A DNA stretch of 64,000 nt, taken from the NCBI GenBank assembly GCA_963845895.1, contig CAWJTN010000001.1:747063-811062 (forward strand), read 5' to 3'. Shown piece after piece: positions 1-45,216 of this stretch. How positions within the stretch are numbered: the stretch's first letter is position 1; every line of letters begins with the position of its first letter. The stretch comes from Candidatus Roizmanbacteria bacterium (GTDB taxonomy: Bacteria > Patescibacteriota > Microgenomatia > UBA1406 > GWC2-37-13). The notes beneath the pieces are model-generated. The model saw only the letters and a program-made list of their open reading frames with translations. It did no database searches and was not told the origin of the DNA. The position numbers and the translations under genes were made by a program.

Positions 1-105
1 AAGTCATTCACTGATGAGATTGAGATATTTTTGACAACCAAGGAGAAAATATTAAAAGATCAAGAAGATACGAATATCTGGGAGAGAGTGGAGATAGAAG
101 CATAA
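1..105 (+). CDS. 3' end of an ORF entering from upstream of the window (unknown product)
   Basis: Frame 1 is open from base 1 to TAA at 103-105 (..KSFTDEIEIFLTTKEKILKDQEDTNIWERVEIEA*). A hairpin follows. No family recognised. Confidence 0.3.
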   Translation, partial: KSFTDEIEIFLTTKEKILKDQEDTNIWERVEIEA

Positions 106-19199: not shown

Positions 19200-19655
19200 A
19201 TGAACTCGAAGGTCATTTCCAAATATATTATTCTTTACGAATCCCTAACGGGCGGGATAGAGTTATTGCTTGGTTTGGGAATGTTTGTCTTCGGTCAAAA
19301 AATATATCTTTTATACCAACATTTAAAAAATCTTGGCTTTGTGGTTAATTCTCACGGCATATTAGCGATTTTTGTAAGAGGATTGTTACCATTCGTTGTC
19401 CAATATCGAGTTGCGATAGGTTTATTTTTACTGGCGTCCGGTTTAGTTAAAATCATAGGCTCTGTAGGAATTTTCTTCAAAAAAAAGTGGGGAGGCTATA
19501 TTTTAATTATTTCGCTTCTAATTTTGGCACCTTTTGATATTGTCGCAATAATAAGAAGGCCAACTGCGATAAAATTAGTCTACTTAATTATAAATATCAG
19601 CATAATAATCTATCTTTTACCCAAAAAGATTAAAAAGGAATTTGGTAAAATTTGA
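19200..19655 (+). CDS. Small integral membrane protein (possibly DUF2127-like)
   Basis: Four hydrophobic helices. The family guess is from memory only. Confidence 0.55.
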   Translation: MNSKVISKYIILYESLTGGIELLLGLGMFVFGQKIYLLYQHLKNLGFVVNSHGILAIFVRGLLPFVVQYRVAIGLFLLASGLVKIIGSVGIFFKKKWGGYILIISLLILAPFDIVAIIRRPTAIKLVYLIINISIIIYLLPKKIKKEFGKI

Positions 19656-19657
19656 AG

Positions 19658-21037
19658 ATGCATCCTCAAAATTTTACTCTAAAAAACGGTCTTCGGGTAA
19701 TTCTAATAGATACTAAAGCCTTTCCAACAATGACTACGATACTTCTTATTGGGGCAGGATCCAGATATGAGAATGAAAAAAACAATGGGGTTGCCCACTT
19801 TTTTGAACATATGGCCTTTAAGGGTTCGAAAAAATATCCTAACTTTTTTATAATCTCTTCCATACTGGAAGGGATGGGAGCTTATCATAACGCCTTTACC
19901 TCAAAAGATCATACAGGTTACTGGGTAAAGGCCCCGACAGTTCACTTCGAAAAAATAATAGATGTTCTATCTGATATGGTTTTAAACCCTTTACTTAAGC
20001 AAGAAGAGATTGAAAAAGAAAGAAATGTGATTGTTGAAGAGATGAATATGCGTGAAGATAATCCGCAAGGAAGGGTTGGCGAGTACTTTGAGGAGTTACT
20101 TTATAAAGGTAATCCTTTAGGCTTCGATGTTATAGGTTCAAAAGAAACTGTTGCAGGCTTTAAGAGACAAACCTTTGTTGACTATATGAATAGTCTTTAT
20201 AACCCGAAAAATGCGGTTTTAGTTGTTGCCGGCGGATTAGCTGATGCTGATAAAGCTCGTTACCGTGTTTCTCACTTTAATAGGAACACCCCTTCAAAAA
20301 TCATCGGCTCCTTAAAAAGTTCGAAACAGGTATCTTCGCTTTATAATTATTATTTTAAAATCATTGAGAAAAAATTTGCTAATTGGTCTCGTGTAGGGAC
20401 GACTCTTGGGTCGCCCTTTCAGAAGGTCGTCGAAAGACAAAATAAACCCCAGTTATTTATTAAATACAAAAAGACCGAGCAGACACATTTTATTTTAGGT
20501 TTTAGGACTTTTTCTTTTTTTGATCCAAGAAGGTATGCTCTTGCGGTTTTAACTACAATATTGGGCGGCGGTGCTTCTTCAAAATTGTTTATCGAAGTAA
20601 GAGAAAAAAGAGGACTTTGCTACTATATTTATAGCGGACGTGAACTTTATCAAGATGTAGGTTACATCAGTTCCCAGGCAGGCGTTACTAACAACTTAGA
20701 TAAGATAAAAGAGGCCATAACAACAATAATGGTTGAACATAAGAAATTGGCAAAGGGTGAGTTGAACAAAAGCGATCTGTCTCGGGCCAAAGAGATTCTA
20801 AAAGGAAGAACTCTTTTGTCTATGGAAGACTCTTCAAATATTGCGTCTTTTTATGGAACCAAACAGTTGCTTGAGAATAAAATTGAGGGAGTAGGTGAGG
20901 TAATAAAAAAAATCGAGGCTGTAAAAGGAGACGAAGTTGTAGATCTGGCAAAGGAGATATTTAGAGCTGAAAGGTTAAATTTTGCTTTGATTGGGCCTTT
21001 TGAGGAAGAAAACTTTAAGAATATAATTAATTTTTGA
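19658..21037 (+). CDS. M16 (pitrilysin/insulinase) family zinc peptidase
   Basis: GVAHFFEHMAFKGS is an HxxEH zinc motif, and the protein has the two-lobed M16 length. ATG 19658 is preferred over TTG 19652. The gene contains a repeat-derived in-frame insert. Confidence 0.9.
   Translation: MHPQNFTLKNGLRVILIDTKAFPTMTTILLIGAGSRYENEKNNGVAHFFEHMAFKGSKKYPNFFIISSILEGMGAYHNAFTSKDHTGYWVKAPTVHFEKIIDVLSDMVLNPLLKQEEIEKERNVIVEEMNMREDNPQGRVGEYFEELLYKGNPLGFDVIGSKETVAGFKRQTFVDYMNSLYNPKNAVLVVAGGLADADKARYRVSHFNRNTPSKIIGSLKSSKQVSSLYNYYFKIIEKKFANWSRVGTTLGSPFQKVVERQNKPQLFIKYKKTEQTHFILGFRTFSFFDPRRYALAVLTTILGGGASSKLFIEVREKRGLCYYIYSGRELYQDVGYISSQAGVTNNLDKIKEAITTIMVEHKKLAKGELNKSDLSRAKEILKGRTLLSMEDSSNIASFYGTKQLLENKIEGVGEVIKKIEAVKGDEVVDLAKEIFRAERLNFALIGPFEEENFKNIINF
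20261..20342 (+). repeat. In-frame copy of a repeat segment inside the M16 peptidase gene
   Basis: TACCGTGTTTCTCACTTTAATAGGAACACCCC..GGCTCCTTAAAAAGTTCGAAACAGGTATCTTCGCTTT aligns with intergenic 21105-21178. Confidence 0.6.
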
Positions 21038-21039
21038 TA

Positions 21040-21216
21040 GGTGGCGAGAAGAAAGGGATCCCTTTCAGGGTGAACCCGACAGCGCGCATGAAGGGAAAGT
21101 TTGATACCGTTTTTCTCGCTTAATAGGAACACCCCCTATTCGGGCTCCTTAAAAGCTCGAAAAAGGTATCTGCTCTTTCCTGAAGAGCACTGGCGGGAAT
21201 GAATTCGAGGCAGAAT
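21040..21216 (-). repeat. GC-rich palindromic element, long form (inner element with expanded loop)
   Basis: The reverse complement starts ATTCTG..TCCCGCCAGTGCTC and ends GCGCGCTGTCGGG..CCACC, like 22061-22135. About 100 extra nt lie between the stem arms. Confidence 0.6.
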
Positions 21217-21235
21217 CTATCAAAAATTTAAAATT

Positions 21236-22031: not shown

Positions 22032-22163
22032 GGTTATTTCAAAACCTCTGATCTTGTCAGATTCTGTTGCGATTTTCCCTCCCGCCAGTGCTCACTTCGT
22101 TGCGCGCTGTCGGGATCCCTTCTAATCGCACCACCTGTCATTAATAGAAGTAGGTTTTGAAAT
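22032..22163 (+). repeat. Nested palindromic element: outer element with 12-nt terminal inverted repeats, enclosing the 75-nt GC-rich inner element (22061-22135)
   Basis: ATTTCAAAACCT (22036-22047) is the reverse complement of AGGTTTTGAAAT (22152-22163). The same ends recur at 45224-45306. Confidence 0.65.
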
Positions 22164-24480: not shown

Positions 24481-32295
<7,815 letters not shown>

Positions 32296-41565: not shown

Positions 41566-42678
41566 TTATAGTCGATCATGACAGAAATAACAATTTTTTG
41601 TATAAGTCACATACATTTGAGACTCTGGAGGTAAAATTTTTAACAGATGGTTAATTGGTGAAACATTGTTAAGTGACTTATGAACTCGTTTAGTATTGTA
41701 CCAGACCAAATAATCCATTAAACGGGAATTAAATTCGTCTATCCCGTCAAGTGCATATTCTTCATGACCATTAATAAATTCTTCTTGTAGGGTTCTGTTG
41801 GCGCGTTCAACAAAACCATTGATTTTTGGGCATCTCGGATAGATAAATAAATGTTTAATGTTTTTTCTTTTAAGATAATCATCAAAGTCTCCCATAAACT
41901 CAAGACCGTTATCTGTTTGAATTGTATGTATCTTGTTTAGGATAGGATAAACTAACTCAAGCTTCCTCATAAAATCTAAGCTGTTTTGGCTGTTGAGTCT
42001 GATGTAGCCGTAGGAGAATTGGAATTTGAGGTTAACGTCAACGGCATTTAGGATGTATAGCTTAATGCCATGGATAAACTTAACAATTGTATCAATCTCA
42101 ATGTAACCAACTCCTATCGGTTTAGGAGATTTCTTAACCTTTAGTTTGTATGATAGCCTCGCTTTAGAATGACGATGAAGCGGGTTATGGTAAATTCTTC
42201 TTGATTTGGAATAGAGATTATGGCGCTTAATAACTTTTCCAATAGTTGACTCTGAGATTGACTTAATATTTTCTTTTAGGCAATATTCTTCAAGTAGTGG
42301 TTTAATCTTTTCTTTGCCTAGATGGCCATATTGTTCCCGAAGTGATTTGATAAATTCGATAATCTTAAAGTTAGTATTCATGACCCTTTTTCTTTTAGGA
42401 GACCTCGAAGCTGGTACTAGACTTTCAAGTCTACCCAAATTATCTTTAAGTGTTTTCTTCCATCGGTATATTGTTGGCTTGGAGATCTCAAAGGCTTCAA
42501 CGGTTGCCCTTGTTCCATACTTACCATGAAACTCGATAATCTTTAACCTAGTCTCAGCCATTTGAGACTTGCTGAAAAACAAAACAGAGCGTATTGATCT
42601 TCTCATTCGCCCATTATACAGAGGCGTGTCCATAAACAAATCCTGATACGAAGTTGAGACTCCTAGAGACCCTTTCAT
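41566..42678 (-). CDS. IS481-family DDE transposase (HTH + rve integrase core)
   Basis: HTIQTDNGLEFMG..YPRCPKINGFVERANRTLQEEF..YLVWYNTKRVHKSL. The likely real start is an internal Met (MAETRLKII.., ATG 42561). The 3' end runs through the left IR. Confidence 0.85.
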   Translation of the reverse strand: MKGSLGVSTSYQDLFMDTPLYNGRMRRSIRSVLFFSKSQMAETRLKIIEFHGKYGTRATVEAFEISKPTIYRWKKTLKDNLGRLESLVPASRSPKRKRVMNTNFKIIEFIKSLREQYGHLGKEKIKPLLEEYCLKENIKSISESTIGKVIKRHNLYSKSRRIYHNPLHRHSKARLSYKLKVKKSPKPIGVGYIEIDTIVKFIHGIKLYILNAVDVNLKFQFSYGYIRLNSQNSLDFMRKLELVYPILNKIHTIQTDNGLEFMGDFDDYLKRKNIKHLFIYPRCPKINGFVERANRTLQEEFINGHEEYALDGIDEFNSRLMDYLVWYNTKRVHKSLNNVSPINHLLKILPPESQMYVTYTKNCYFCHDRL

Positions 42679-43472: not shown

Positions 43473-44255
43473 CTAAAAATTTTTACCAATGACGATTTCC
43501 CTTAAAAGATAATAGATAAATTTTAAGCCGGTGGGAATTGCAGATGCTCCGCTCTTACCTCCAATTCTTTGTCCTTCAACTGTTGGGATTTCAGCGATTT
43601 TTAATCCTAATTTTAAAGCACGGATCGTCATCTGGTACTCGATGGCAAAACCCTCCGCATCAAGATGGAGTTTGTTGAAGGAACTTTTTTTAATTGCACG
43701 GTAACCATTTATAGAATCGGTAATTGAACTTTTTGCTAGATTCTGTCCCGAGTTTCCCTCCCGCCAGTGCTCACTTCGTTGCGCGCTGTCGGGAGCCCTT
43801 CCACTCGTGCCACCTAGCAAAAAATTATTCCACAAGATATTTGCTAGCAACGTAAATCCCTGGTTTGCCCATTTGCGAAACTTCAAAAGCTTGTGATCCT
43901 CTTCGTTTTTTGATCCTTTTTTAAAACGCGAAGCGATTGCCAAATCATAACCTTTAGTCAAAATATTAATCAATTTTGGAATATCAGCTGGGTTTTCATT
44001 GCCGTCTGGACTAAAAAAAATTAGAATGTCTCCTTTTGCTTTTTTTGCACCAATTCTAAAAGCTTCCGCACGTCCGGGTTTTTTTTGTTTAACAATGGGT
44101 ATCTTATTTTTTTTAAAAAATTCAACGGTTCCGTCGGTTGAGTTGTAGTCTACAGCAAAATATTCATCAACGCTAGAGAAAGGGATTTTTTTTATGAGTT
44201 TTTTGAGACCAGAGATTTCATTGCGGGTTAAGATAATGAGAGTTGATTTAATCAT
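43473..44255 (-). CDS. Family-2 glycosyltransferase carrying an in-frame repeat-element insertion
   Basis: LIILTRNE..AVDYNSTDGT..ILIFFSPDGNE. The GC-rich segment translated as GGTSGRAPDSAQRSEHWREGNSGQN interrupts the conserved region before ITDSINGYRAI. ATG 44255 is preferred. Confidence 0.8.
   Translation of the reverse strand: MIKSTLIILTRNEISGLKKLIKKIPFSSVDEYFAVDYNSTDGTVEFFKKNKIPIVKQKKPGRAEAFRIGAKKAKGDILIFFSPDGNENPADIPKLINILTKGYDLAIASRFKKGSKNEEDHKLLKFRKWANQGFTLLANILWNNFLLGGTSGRAPDSAQRSEHWREGNSGQNLAKSSITDSINGYRAIKKSSFNKLHLDAEGFAIEYQMTIRALKLGLKIAEIPTVEGQRIGGKSGASAIPTGLKFIYYLLREIVIGKNF
43740..43814 (+). repeat. 75-nt GC-rich palindromic inner element inserted inside a GT2 coding sequence
   Basis: ATTCTGTCCCGAGTTTCCCTCCCGCCAGTGCTCACTTCGTTGCGCGCTGTCGGGAGCCCTTCCACTCGTGCCACC has the same length and core as 22061-22135. 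It is flanked by TAG on both sides. Confidence 0.7.
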
Positions 44256-45216
44256 AATTTTCTTTATACCACTCAATGGTTTTTTGTAAGCCAAAATTGA
44301 GCGGAGTTCTTGCTATAAAACCAATTTTTTCTTTGGCTTTTTTTGTAGAGATTATTCTTCTTGGGTGTCCGTCAGGTTTGCTTTTGTCGAATAAAACTTT
44401 AGTTTTTTTACCTGACAATTTTACTATCATTTTTGCAAGATTAGCGATCGTTATTTTTTCGTCTGATGCTAAATTTATCGGTTCGGCAAAAAAATATTTT
44501 TCAACTGCTTTTAGTAATCCTTCGGTCAAATCTTCAACGAAGATAAAGGATCTGATTTGTTTTCCTGAACCCCAGACCCTCAAAGGACTTTCATTATTAA
44601 AAACTCTTCTAATTAAAGATGGAATTACATGGGATATTCTAGGATCAAATTTATCATTTGGACCGTAAACATTTGTCGGACGAACTACTGCAATTTTCAT
44701 GCCAAATTGATCTGAATATGTTTTGGCCATAATTTCAGTAACTCTTTTAGCCCAACCATAGCCGAAGTTTGTTTTTTCCGGCTGACCTACAAATCCATAT
44801 TCTTCTTCTATTGGAGTAGTGCAGTCTTCAGAATAAACACAGACAGAGCTCATCAGCAAAAGTCGTTCAACATGATTAATTCTTGCAGCTTCAAGCATGT
44901 TTTCAGTTATTTCTAGATTGTCTTTGAGCATCGTACCTGAATGTTTTAAATTATATTGGATGCCAGCAACATGAGCCGCTAGATTTAGGACAATTTCTTT
45001 ATTTTTTGTTACCGAAACAGCATTCGTAAAGTTGGAAAGATCAGTTTTAACTATTCTTAAATCCTTTTTTAGGGATAAAATATTCTTGAGGTTGCCTCGG
45101 AACGTTGTAATTGTTACGTCCGCCCCTTTTTTTAAAAGAAGTCTGGCAAGGTTTGACCCAATGAATCCTGTACCACCTGTAAGAAGTACCTTTTTTCCTT
45201 TCCAAAAGTTAAACAT
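44248..45216 (-). CDS. NAD(P)-dependent sugar epimerase/reductase (extended SDR; GDP-fucose/colitose-synthase-like)
   Basis: LLTGGTGFIGSNL is the Rossmann motif and YGWAK is the YxxxK motif. Confidence 0.85.
   Translation of the reverse strand: MFNFWKGKKVLLTGGTGFIGSNLARLLLKKGADVTITTFRGNLKNILSLKKDLRIVKTDLSNFTNAVSVTKNKEIVLNLAAHVAGIQYNLKHSGTMLKDNLEITENMLEAARINHVERLLLMSSVCVYSEDCTTPIEEEYGFVGQPEKTNFGYGWAKRVTEIMAKTYSDQFGMKIAVVRPTNVYGPNDKFDPRISHVIPSLIRRVFNNESPLRVWGSGKQIRSFIFVEDLTEGLLKAVEKYFFAEPINLASDEKITIANLAKMIVKLSGKKTKVLFDKSKPDGHPRRIISTKKAKEKIGFIARTPLNFGLQKTIEWYKENYD

What the first reader, a model, noticed from the sequence alone, without database searches (positions are those of the whole stretch)
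43740..43814. Palindromic element inserted in frame inside a glycosyltransferase gene (RPE-like behaviour)
The 75-nt GC-rich element, flanked by TAG on both sides (78 nt = 26 codons with one flank), lies within the GT2 ORF on the opposite strand and does not break it. It is translated as ..LLGGTSGRAPDSAQRSEHWREGNSGQNLA.. between ..LLANILWNNF and KSSITDSINGYRAI. In Dpm1/GtrB-like enzymes as I recall them, those two flanks are contiguous. In-frame colonisation of protein-coding genes by a palindromic repeat is the hallmark of Rickettsia palindromic elements and is rare elsewhere. Together with the M16 case, this makes two hits in 64 kb.
Basis: partly seen in the sequence, partly recalled or inferred. 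Interest (0 to 1): 0.7.

Follow-up and report, generated by a model that had tools for sequence, protein, structure and literature searches.

The report
In-frame palindromic repeat inside glycosyltransferase gene
A small GC-rich hairpin-forming repeat, one of a family scattered through the tiny genomes of candidate-phyla-radiation bacteria, sits in frame inside a glycosyltransferase gene and adds 32 amino acids to a loop without breaking the protein, much as the palindromic elements of Rickettsia do.

Summary
Window 43739-43814 (- strand GGTGGC...CAGAATC) is a 76-nt GC-rich core closed by a perfect 9-bp inverted repeat (12 bp with one G.U). The GT2 ORF reads through it.

- **Insert size:** 110 of 120 orthologues have 3 residues where this protein has 35. 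The insert is therefore about 96 nt, core plus both arms.
- **Protein:** AlphaFold keeps the DPMS/GtrB-like fold and leaves the insert as a low-confidence loop.
- **Family:** the window holds 3 copies. I catalogued 69 distinct copies in Roizmanbacteria, other Microgenomates and related CPR assemblies. They share a conserved asymmetric core, covarying helices and a variable apical hairpin.
- **Gene colonisation:** 28 of 69 copies lie inside long ORFs, in either orientation. All are in frame and stop-free, and no gene is broken.
- **Persistence:** several insertions sit at the same site in orthologous genes. Two sites resolved to the nucleotide show both arms added and no target-site duplication.

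No Rfam family matches and I found no literature on it. The "M16 case" is a second, unrelated in-frame hairpin family, which is also nested inside copy c2.

Best reading: a new RPE-like, MITE-like selfish element family. Its mobilisation mechanism is unknown.

The parts
43739..43814 (-). Copy c1, conserved core of the element (76 nt; GGTGGCACGAG...GAGCACTGGCGGGAGGGAAACTCGGGACAGAATC)
   Evidence: Sequence read. Fold z = -6.3 / -4.5. CM hit at 98.7 bits, E = 4.7e-25. Aligned with 33 other copies in A3.
43815..43824 (-). c1 5' arm in element orientation (TTTTTTGCTA); encodes (N)FLL
   Evidence: Perfect 9-bp complement of 43730-38, plus a G.U at the 10th position. It is extra relative to the 3-residue loop of 110/120 orthologues.
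43729..43738 (-). c1 3' arm in element orientation (TAGCAAAAAG); encodes (L)AK(S)
   Evidence: Same evidence as for the 5' arm. Core plus both arms gives 96 nt = 32 codons.
43473..44294 (-). Host gene: GT2-family glycosyltransferase (DPMS/ArnC/GtrB-like catalytic domain). The database protein P0001 uses an internal ATG, 260 aa.
   Evidence: Pfam PF00535, E = 6e-16. All 46 columns invariant in 120 orthologues are kept. AlphaFold pLDDT 88, with best PDB matches 5mlz, ArnC and GtrB.
21040..21217 (+). Copy c2, long form, with arms 21031-21039 (TTTTTGATA, containing the M16 stop codon TGA) and 21218-21226 (TATCAAAAA)
   Evidence: CM hit E = 5.5e-9. The arms differ from those of c1 by one compensatory pair.
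21095..21180 (+). Family-B hairpin element nested in the apical (P4) loop of c2
   Evidence: Shares TAATAGGAACACCCC and flanking sequence with the M16 in-ORF insert.
22060..22135 (-). Copy c3, short form, intergenic between the prepilin peptidase gene and the next ORF. Flanked by TGACA on both sides, with no outer stem.
   Evidence: CM hit at 98.9 bits. P2 differs from c1 by compensatory changes.
20250..20344 (+). A different family from c1.
   Evidence: DNA read. Fold z = -3.55. Short M16 orthologues lack the segment and many others carry related inserts at the same place.

Best explanation
**What it is.** The segment is one copy of a previously uncatalogued family of small, non-coding, GC-rich imperfect-palindrome repeats. 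The family lives in the AT-rich genomes of Microgenomates (Roizmanbacteria and relatives) and other CPR bacteria.

**Anatomy.** On one strand each copy folds into a rod-like hairpin with these parts:
- a variable outer stem of 6-14 bp, usually 8-10 bp;
- a conserved inner stem YAGGU/AUCUR with a fixed G.U;
- a covarying 6-7-bp helix (P2);
- a purine-rich internal loop;
- a nearly invariant irregular helix, TCCCGACAGCGCGC / GAGCACUGGCGGGA;
- an apical hairpin that ranges from 7 nt to about 150 nt and can itself host another element.

**Shown.**
- The unit that enters a site is core plus both arms, with no target-site duplication.
- In genes, only copies that keep the frame and have no stop are seen. 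They are read through and add about 25-36 residues to tolerant loops.
- In the GT2 gene the addition is 32 residues, between the helix ending in W and the TDSINGYRAI motif.
- Copies persist through speciation at the same sites and exchange internal modules.

**Inferred.**
- The family behaves as selfish mobile DNA, like RPEs and other intragenic MITEs.
- The conserved bulged hairpin is the recognition structure for a trans-acting enzyme. That enzyme most likely acts on folded single-stranded DNA, in the style of HUH/RAYT or IS200-type transposition. This would fit the absence of duplications, the strand-specific wobble pairs and the lack of orientation bias.
- Selection against frame-breaking insertions explains the in-frame pattern.
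- The GT2 enzyme is probably still functional.
For: **Repeat family.**
- The window holds 3 copies.
- The genome scan returned 36 stretches, of which two (L010, L018) lack the 5' motif and look like chance matches. The metagenome scan returned 53 stretches.
- Together these give 69 distinct copies.

**Structure.**
- RNAalifold and pair counts: 86% of cells paired against 71% in shuffles. 217 cells have changes on both sides against 79. Covariation score is 0.41 against 0.14, with 0 of 500 shuffles reaching it. Slid controls give at most 0.09.

**Insert relative to orthologues.**
- 110/120 GT2 orthologues have 3 aa where the window has 35.
- Transketolase site DQIRM-SQYS^..GSH is 11 aa in 94/118 orthologues. 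The L084 insert is arm 9 + core 91 + arm 8 = 108 nt. The L093 insert is 7 + 88 + 7 = 102 nt and lies 2 nt away. Neither has a duplication.

**Gene colonisation.**
- 28/69 copies are in ORFs (18 sense, 10 antisense), all open.
- No ORF pair is split by a copy.
- 5 of 6 frames of the core are open.

**Persistence and recombination.**
- Same-site copies occur in Fmt, TGT, a PMT-like glycosyltransferase, transketolase and the gatB-dnaE spacer. P2 and P4 modules are swapped between them.
- The element region is 91% identical at nucleotide level in hosts whose proteins are 67% identical.

**Protein.**
- AlphaFold pLDDT is 88 overall. Two segments inside the insert (149-154 and 163-172) fall below 50 and the whole stretch is coil. 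The top PDB matches are DPMS, ArnC and GtrB.
- All invariant residues are retained.

**No known RNA family.** Searches returned nothing.

**No orientation bias in intergenic copies.** 13 same/same against 16 opposite/opposite.
Against: - No transposase or other partner enzyme was identified. The only IS in the window (rve-type, 41566..42678) has unrelated ends.
- No polymorphic filled/empty allele pair was found at nucleotide level in one species, so recent mobility is not demonstrated.
- The deep covariation, the conserved unpaired nucleotides and the fixed G.U look more like a functional structured nucleic acid than like a typical young MITE.
- The variable arms are unexplained. They differ between two L015 copies whose cores are nearly identical.
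- A quarter or more of copies (..GGAACA|core|TGGAR..) have no outer stem.
- Expression and translation of the insert-bearing GT2 are untested.
- If the ancestral GT2 loop was of the rarer 5-6-residue type, the insert would be 87-90 nt rather than 96 nt.
Confidence: 0.75

Rival explanations
1. It is a functional structured RNA, or a single-stranded DNA motif, used by the host. Candidates would be a protein-binding or processing site, or a small RNA domain. On this view the multi-copy, gene-internal distribution is secondary.
For: - Heavy compensatory variation in P1 and P2, beside near-invariant unpaired and irregular segments.
- G.U at columns 14:111 in 31/34 copies, replaced by A-U in the other three.
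- C-to-U changes in P3 that give U.G pairs.
- Inner-arm wobbles favour one strand, 9 against 3.
- The element is more conserved than its host gene, 91% against about 65% nucleotide identity.
Against: - No orientation preference relative to host genes, either in ORFs (18:10) or between them (13:16).
- Copies sit inside unrelated essential genes.
- No Rfam hit.
- Degenerate and internally deleted copies persist, such as the 48-nt copy in L015.
- The search pattern itself required the conserved 21 nt, so core conservation is partly an ascertainment effect.
Confidence: 0.12
2. The element is removed or skipped at expression level, as a mini-intron-like excision or a programmed translational bypass like the GC-rich 'byps' of Magnusiomyces mitochondria or T4 gene 60. 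The protein would then lack the insert.
For: - The flanks pair and would bring the two exon ends together.
- In c1 the codon before the core (CTA) equals the codon formed at its end (C+TA).
- GC-rich hairpins in an AT-rich genome resemble mitochondrial GC clusters (own knowledge).
Against: - All 28 in-ORF copies are in frame and stop-free, and no out-of-frame copy splits a gene. Removal or bypass would lift that constraint.
- The CTA/CTA match is not general. Most copies have ATA, ACA and so on before the core.
- No ribozyme or intron family matches.
Confidence: 0.04
3. It is a lineage-specific native loop of the enzyme, or a chance GC-rich stretch, and not an inserted element.
For: The loop is variable in a few orthologues, at 5-6 aa in 7 of 120.
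Against: The same 76-nt sequence recurs in non-coding DNA of the window and in dozens of unrelated genes and spacers in other genomes. 117/120 orthologues lack any long segment at this site.
Confidence: 0.01

Closest known systems
Rickettsia palindromic elements (RPE-1 to RPE-10)
   Same: Both are small palindromic repeats predicted to form long stem-loops. Both occur in intergenic DNA and, often, in frame inside conserved protein-coding genes of a reduced-genome symbiont or parasite. Both add roughly 30-50 residues, persist through speciation and come in several coexisting families. No clear transposase is known for either, and TSD is listed as '?' for RPE (PMC2229807, PMC10969869).
   Different: - The host is CPR/Microgenomates, not Rickettsia.
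- These elements are GC-rich in an AT-rich genome and shorter (about 90-115 nt against 105-150).
- No conserved peptide is encoded: two sense frames and three antisense frames are used, and an optional C shifts the second half.
- The outer stem is variable while the asymmetric core is highly conserved.
- Sequence relatedness to RPEs could not be tested here.
Intragenic bacterial MITEs (ERIC/IRU, 107-bp Correia/NEMIS, YPAL/RU-2)
   Same: All are non-autonomous repeats under 200 bp, with 5'-end to 3'-end pairing into one long stem-loop. All have size variants caused by internal insertions or deletions, and occasional in-frame fusion to ORFs. A TA often lies at the termini (PMC2229807); about half of the copies here have ..TA|core|TA..
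   Different: Those elements are usually AT-rich and make target-site duplications (TA, or 3-26 bp for YPAL). Their terminal inverted repeats have conserved sequence and in some cases match a known IS. Here no duplication was seen at two nucleotide-resolved sites, the outermost paired bases are not conserved, and no cognate IS was found.
REP/REPIN elements mobilised by RAYT (TnpA-REP, HUH Y1 transposases)
   Same: Both are hairpin-defined repeats whose imperfections (bulges, mismatches) are conserved. Both have about 70-110-nt hairpin doublets and no target duplication. Both have a presumed single-strand intermediate, are long-lived and vertically inherited, and reach many copies per genome (own knowledge of the REP/RAYT literature).
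   Different: REPs are by definition extragenic and carry a 5' GTAG. A single-copy RAYT gene is flanked by REPs. None of this was seen or could be tested here, and 41% of the copies here are intragenic.
GC clusters / 'byp' elements of yeast mitochondria
   Same: Both are GC-rich mobile hairpins in AT-rich compact genomes that land inside protein-coding genes (own knowledge).
   Different: Byps break the frame and are bypassed by the ribosome. Here the frame is always kept, so read-through is the simpler reading.

Membership tests
Rickettsia palindromic elements (RPE) | Repeated palindromic sequence predicted to fold into a long stem-loop | tested here: met
   Fold z = -6.3. Consensus structure with covariation. 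69 copies catalogued.
Rickettsia palindromic elements (RPE) | Inserted in frame in conserved protein-coding genes without disrupting them | tested here: met
   The GT2 insert is absent from 117/120 orthologues. 28/69 copies are in ORFs, all open. The fold is kept in the AlphaFold model.
Rickettsia palindromic elements (RPE) | Rickettsia-specific; sequence belongs to one of the RPE-1..10 families | tested here: not met
   Named hosts are CPR: Roizmanbacteria, Patescibacteria group and one Saccharibacteria-labelled contig. The rest are unnamed or doubtfully labelled MAGs. Direct sequence comparison with RPE consensus sequences was not possible with these tools.
MITE (miniature inverted-repeat transposable element) | Small, non-coding, multi-copy | tested here: met
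   74-221 nt cores; 3 copies in 64 kb; dozens of genomes.
MITE (miniature inverted-repeat transposable element) | Terminal inverted repeats of conserved sequence | tested here: inconclusive
   The ends pair (YAGGUGGC.. with ..GNCAGAAUCUR, with a 3-nt bulge). The outermost 6-14 paired bases differ from copy to copy.
MITE (miniature inverted-repeat transposable element) | Target-site duplication | tested here: not met
   At transketolase site B, the L084 and L093 inserts equal arms plus core exactly, with no duplicated host bases. The arm-less subfamily has GGAA..GGAR flanks of unclear meaning.
MITE (miniature inverted-repeat transposable element) | Cognate autonomous IS with the same ends | tested here: inconclusive
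   The only transposase in the window (rve/IS481-like, 41566..42678) has unrelated ends. The rest of the 1.23-Mb genome was not available.
REP/REPIN-RAYT | Extragenic location; 5' GTAG plus hairpin; RAYT gene in the genome | tested here: not met
   41% of copies are intragenic. There is no GTAG motif at the 5' end. Presence of a RAYT gene was not tested.
Known structured RNA families (Rfam 15: ribozymes, introns, riboswitches, sRNAs) | Match to a curated covariance model | tested here: not met
   There were 0 hits at gathering score in the whole window. The permissive search returned only two sub-threshold hits at E > 1, and the one overlapping the element is to a mammalian lncRNA model.
Programmed translational bypass elements (byps, T4 gene 60) | The insert breaks the reading frame or carries stops and is flanked by matching take-off and landing codons | tested here: not met
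   All in-ORF copies are open and in frame. Matching CTA codons are seen in c1 but not generally.

The most novel reading that the evidence does not exclude
CPR genomes may harbour a structure-defined class of mobile hairpin elements, in at least two families that nest in one another. Such elements would move as 'core plus self-complementary arms' without target duplication. The likeliest route is a single-stranded intermediate recognised by a still unknown enzyme. They would repeatedly remodel the same surface loops of housekeeping enzymes. On this reading the conserved bulged core with its fixed G.U is a new protein-recognition motif (or ribozyme-like motif), not a decayed transposon end.
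Probability: 0.3. Interest if true: 0.75.

Novelty: new variant of a known kind. Interest (0 to 1): 0.6.

Why it matters
In-frame 'protein-coding palindromes' have been treated as a hallmark of Rickettsia. This finding shows the same phenomenon, at high frequency and with at least two families, in the candidate phyla radiation. That is another huge group of reduced-genome, host-dependent bacteria.

- **Protein length variation.** It gives a concrete explanation for much of the unexplained length variation of CPR proteins. Transketolases here range from 614 to 758 aa and M16 peptidases from 422 to 485 aa. One transketolase loop carries some insert in 24 of 118 orthologues.
- **Annotation and modelling.** It warns annotators and structure modellers that such segments are selfish inserts, not domains.
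- **A testable mobile-DNA problem.** It offers a well-defined, strongly conserved hairpin as bait for finding a new mobilising enzyme in organisms where mobile-DNA biology is almost unknown.

Tried and rejected
- **Rfam.** Gathering thresholds on the whole window and permissive thresholds on the region gave nothing relevant.
- **Link to the neighbouring rve-type IS.** Its ends are unrelated and only one weak inverted repeat was found.
- **Intron or bypass reading.** I looked for genes split out of frame by a copy and found none. L027 turned out to be gatB stop / dnaE start.
- **'One arm is native target, the other an inverted copy' (snap-back model).**
  - It looked attractive for c2, where the M16 stop lies in the arm, and for GT2 if the native loop had 6 aa.
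  - It is rejected for the two transketolase sites resolved to the nucleotide, where both arms are extra.
  - M16 is also compatible with both arms being extra: the native end would be ..NIINI*.
- **Arms copied from nearby host sequence.** Only c1 has a similar palindrome nearby; other copies do not.
- **Modulo-3 test of arm length against ORF location.** Uninformative, because stem ends are fuzzy by about 1 nt.
- **Direct-repeat (TSD) test on arm-less copies.** Not above control.
- **PDB-based loop-length estimates** for Fmt, TGT and the first transketolase loop. These loops vary too much between lineages to size the insert.
- **Viral contigs.** No copy found.
- **Literature.** Searches for CPR/Patescibacteria repeats, MITEs and intragenic elements found no description of this family.
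Full report
**1. The observation**

Window 43730-43825 contains a GC-rich island (0.51-0.53 in 100-nt windows against 0.40 overall). Read on the - strand, which is the coding strand of ORF 43473..44294, it is TTTTTTGCTA-GGTGGCACGAGTGGAAGGGCTCCCGACAGCGCGCAACGAAGTGAGCACTGGCGGGAGGGAAACTCGGGACAGAATC-TAGCAAAAAG.

However, the TAGs are the inner ends of a perfect 9-bp inverted repeat, which reaches 12 bp on the coding strand with one G.U.

The 96-nt stretch 43730-43825 folds far better than shuffles on both strands (z = -6.3 and -4.5, 0 of 200 shuffles).

**2. It is an insert**

The protein is a GT2 glycosyltransferase (PF00535).

- Among the 120 best homologues (59-76% identity, Microgenomates/Roizmanbacteria/Gottesmanbacteria), 110 have exactly three residues between the conserved W and the (V/I)(T/S)D-x-INGYRAI motif. 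Seven have 5-6.
- Only three have long segments: the window (35), P0002 (32) and P0003 (49).
- Against the 3-residue state the insert is 32 codons = 96 nt. That equals the 76-nt core plus both 10-nt arms.
- If the ancestor had the rarer 5-6-residue loop, the insert would be 87-90 nt. I consider this less likely, given the nucleotide-resolved cases in section 5.

All 46 columns invariant across the 120 sequences are kept in the window protein.

An AlphaFold model built on this alignment has mean pLDDT 88 and pTM 0.86. Helix 126-145 is followed by an unstructured stretch with blockwise pLDDT of 45-70, two segments of which (149-154 and 163-172) fall below 50. High confidence resumes at the conserved motif.

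The best PDB matches are dolichyl-phosphate mannose synthase (5mlz, E = 8e-15), ArnC and GtrB.

**3. It is a repeat family**

*Copies in the window.* The core motif GCGCGCTGTCGGG occurs exactly three times. At up to 2 mismatches there are 4 matches against 0.15 expected.

- c1 is the copy in GT2.
- c3 lies at 22060-22135 (-) and is intergenic.
- c2 lies at 21040-21217 (+). It is a long form that starts right after the M16 peptidase gene, whose stop codon lies in the c2 arm.

*Copies elsewhere.* I scanned with a 21-base pattern taken from the 3' half.

- It matched 36 stretches in species-representative genomes. Two of them (L010, L018) lack the 5' motif and look like chance matches. Where the rest are named, they are Roizmanbacteria or Patescibacteria, with one Saccharibacteria-labelled contig. 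Others are unnamed MAGs or MAGs labelled 'uncultured Gammaproteobacteria'.
- One of those 'Gammaproteobacteria' contigs encodes a Microgenomates-type transketolase (P0253), so the label is doubtful.
- It matched 53 stretches in metagenomes and none in viral contigs.
- After de-duplication I hold 69 distinct copies.
- A covariance model built from 34 of them finds no further copies in the window. It does find a divergent one just upstream of the GT2 orthologue in L037.

Rfam has no match, and I found no paper describing the family.

**4. Anatomy**

The alignment A3 and RNAalifold give a rod-like hairpin with the following parts:

- an outer stem formed by the flanks; the perfect length peaks at 8-10 bp and ranges up to 14;
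- an inner stem Y-A-G-G-U / A-U-C-U-R, with a G.U at columns 14:111 in 31 of 34 copies and A-U in the other three;
- helix P2 (6-7 bp), in which all six pairs show changes on both sides, in 2 to 18 copies per pair (10-18 for the inner five);
- a purine-rich internal loop (..GGAAGGG.. opposite ..GGAAA..);
- the almost invariant irregular helix TCCCG-ACAGCGCGC / GAGCACUGG-CGGGA;
- an apical hairpin P4 of 7 to about 150 nt.

On my extended structure, 86% of cells are paired against 71% in column shuffles. 217 cells have compensatory changes against 79. The covariation score is 0.41 against 0.14, reached by 0 of 500 shuffles, and slid controls give at most 0.09.

Wobble pairs favour the GGTGG-to-GAATC strand. 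The evidence is the fixed G.U, the C-to-U changes in P3, and 9 G.T against 3 A.C in the inner arm positions. This is suggestive but not conclusive.

About a quarter of the copies (..GGAACA|core|TGGAR..; all seven in one MAG) lack the outer stem.

**5. What is inserted, and how cleanly**

The transketolase loop DQIRM-(A/S)QYS...GSH is 11 residues in 94 of 118 CPR orthologues. Two lineages carry this element there.

| Locus | Native join | Inserted unit | Size |
|---|---|---|---|
| L084 | SQYS \| TNILNII | TTTGCGGTA + 91-nt core + TACCGCAA | 108 nt |
| L093 | SQYSE(GA \| G)VNLKII, 2 nt further 3' | TGTGTCA + 88-nt core + TGACACA | 102 nt |

In both cases the extra DNA equals the core plus both perfectly paired arms, and no host bases are duplicated. 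The GT2 case (76 + 20 = 96) fits the same rule.

I therefore reject the alternative I had entertained, in which one arm is native target and the other a snap-back copy.

Where the arms come from remains open.

- They differ completely between two L015 copies whose cores differ by two bases.
- Orthologous copies keep their arms but swap P2 or P4 modules (L027/L064/L089; L061/L084b).
- Inner arm positions fall into recurring types (..GCAATA, ..AAAATA, ..GACA).
- c1 and c2 have arms differing by a single compensatory pair.

Two explanations fit. Either the arms are inherited and the cores are homogenised by gene conversion, or the arms are regenerated at each move.

**6. Behaviour in genes**

28 of 69 copies lie inside long ORFs, 18 in sense and 10 in antisense orientation. 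Every one is in frame and free of stops.

Hosts include transketolase (three sites), methionyl-tRNA formyltransferase, tRNA-guanine transglycosylase, asparagine synthase, leucyl-tRNA synthetase-like, phosphoglycerate kinase-like, glutamate dehydrogenase-like and PMT-like membrane glycosyltransferases. Some of these assignments rest on PDB matches and some only on reading the translations.

I found no pair of ORF halves separated out of frame by a copy.

Five of the six frames of the core are open. In sense orientation with a TA-ending arm, only one frame avoids the junction TAG and an internal TGA. This explains why the same frame recurs.

Intergenic copies show no orientation bias relative to their neighbours (13 against 16).

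Same-site copies occur in diverged orthologues: Fmt in L017/L077, TGT in L014/L088, the membrane glycosyltransferase in L015/L048/L057, and gatB-dnaE in L027/L064/L089. An internally deleted 48-nt copy is still in frame in L015. Together these show long persistence and in-frame decay.

In L015 against L057 the host proteins are 67% identical, while the element region is 91% identical at nucleotide level.

**7. Interpretation**

The simplest account is a selfish, non-autonomous hairpin element family whose survivors in genes are filtered by selection for frame and tolerance. That is RPE-like behaviour.

It is not an RPE in the strict sense: the host is different, and relatedness could not be tested.

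It fails the MITE criterion of target-site duplication, and its outermost paired bases are not conserved. It is not a REP, because it is intragenic, has no GTAG, and RAYT presence is untested.

The absence of duplications, the strand-specific wobbles and the conserved mismatches in the hairpin lead me to favour recognition of a folded single strand by a trans-acting enzyme. This step is inference only.

A host-function reading (structured RNA or DNA site) cannot be excluded. It is supported by the depth of covariation and weakened by the lack of orientation bias and by the ascertainment built into my search pattern. Splicing or ribosomal bypass is unlikely, because the frame is always kept.

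**8. The 'M16 case' and hot spots**

M16 orthologues range from 422 to 485 aa. The window protein carries an extra segment of about 33 residues, KARYRVSHFNRNTPSKIIGSLKSSKQVSSLY. It is encoded by a 95-nt AT-richer hairpin at 20250-20344 (z = -3.55).

The same sequence is nested in the P4 loop of c2, and related sequence fills P4 in L003 and L009. The window therefore holds two different in-frame palindromic families, one of which can sit inside the other.

The GT2 loop is hit by three unrelated elements in three lineages: the window; L037, with a long AT-rich hairpin; and L039, with an A-rich repeat. The transketolase loop carries some insert in 24 of 118 orthologues. Permissive loops are thus colonised again and again.

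**9. Verdict**

It is a new variant of a known kind (RPE-like, MITE-like intragenic palindromic repeats), found in a phylum where this has not been described. It has unusual features: a variable carried stem, a conserved asymmetric core, no duplication, and nesting. These features make the mobilisation mechanism an open and testable question.

Noticed in passing
window 20250-20344 (+), inside M16 peptidase ORF 19652..21037: A second, unrelated in-frame hairpin element (family B). It encodes KARYRVSHFNRNTPSKIIGSLKSSKQVSSLY. Short M16 orthologues lack it, and many others carry related inserts at the same place.
   Followed up: partly
window 21095-21180 (+), within copy c2; also L003 and L009: Family-B sequence is nested in the apical loop of the GC-rich element. 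The 'long form' is therefore a composite of two elements.
   Followed up: partly
L037 3001-3822 (P0003) and L039 120-893 (P0002): The same GT2 loop carries different inserts in the two closest orthologues. One is a long AT-rich hairpin and the other an A-rich 'AAATATCAAAAATCAAA' repeat that also occurs upstream of copies in L012 and L026.
   Followed up: partly
L084, L093 and 118 transketolase orthologues (P0241-P0360): Transketolase loop DQIRM-(A/S)QYS..GSH is 11 aa in 94 orthologues. In 24 it carries inserts that extend the loop to 12-55 aa, of several kinds. It is a recurrent insertion hot spot.
   Followed up: partly
window 43840-43860 (- strand, 15-26 nt upstream of c1): The native GT2 sequence TTGCTAGCAAA (encoding LLAN) equals the two c1 arms joined. 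No comparable match was found near other copies. Coincidence or a clue to arm origin.
   Followed up: partly
L003, L008, L009, L012, L016, L019, L025, L026, L030, L031, L033, L063, L065, L085: An 'arm-less' subfamily flanked by ..GGAACA and TGGAR.. instead of an outer stem. It includes all seven copies in MAG JAUSJK01.
   Followed up: partly
window ~25400-29750 (+): A very long GC-richer stretch of G-x-y (collagen-like) triplet repeats, seen in the GC scan.
   Followed up: no
window 41566..42678 (-): An rve-type (IS481-like) transposase ORF with HTH domains, 1 kb from the GT2 gene. Its ends are unrelated to the element.
   Followed up: partly
L002, L005, L007, L008, L011, L013, L015, L023, L025, L031, L033, L035: MAGs titled 'uncultured Gammaproteobacteria' carry the element. 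At least one (649-kb contig) encodes a Microgenomates-type transketolase, so the taxonomic label looks wrong.
   Followed up: partly
L014 ORF 2..1234 (-), residues ~104-129: The tRNA-guanine transglycosylase has a further 26-residue insert, relative to solved TGT structures, at a different site from the element.
   Followed up: no
L037 2869-2982 (+): A divergent family member (arms ATTTCGATA/TATCGAAAT, P3 replaced by CTCTTC/GAAGAG) lies just upstream of the GT2 orthologue. The family is therefore broader than the search pattern captured.
   Followed up: no
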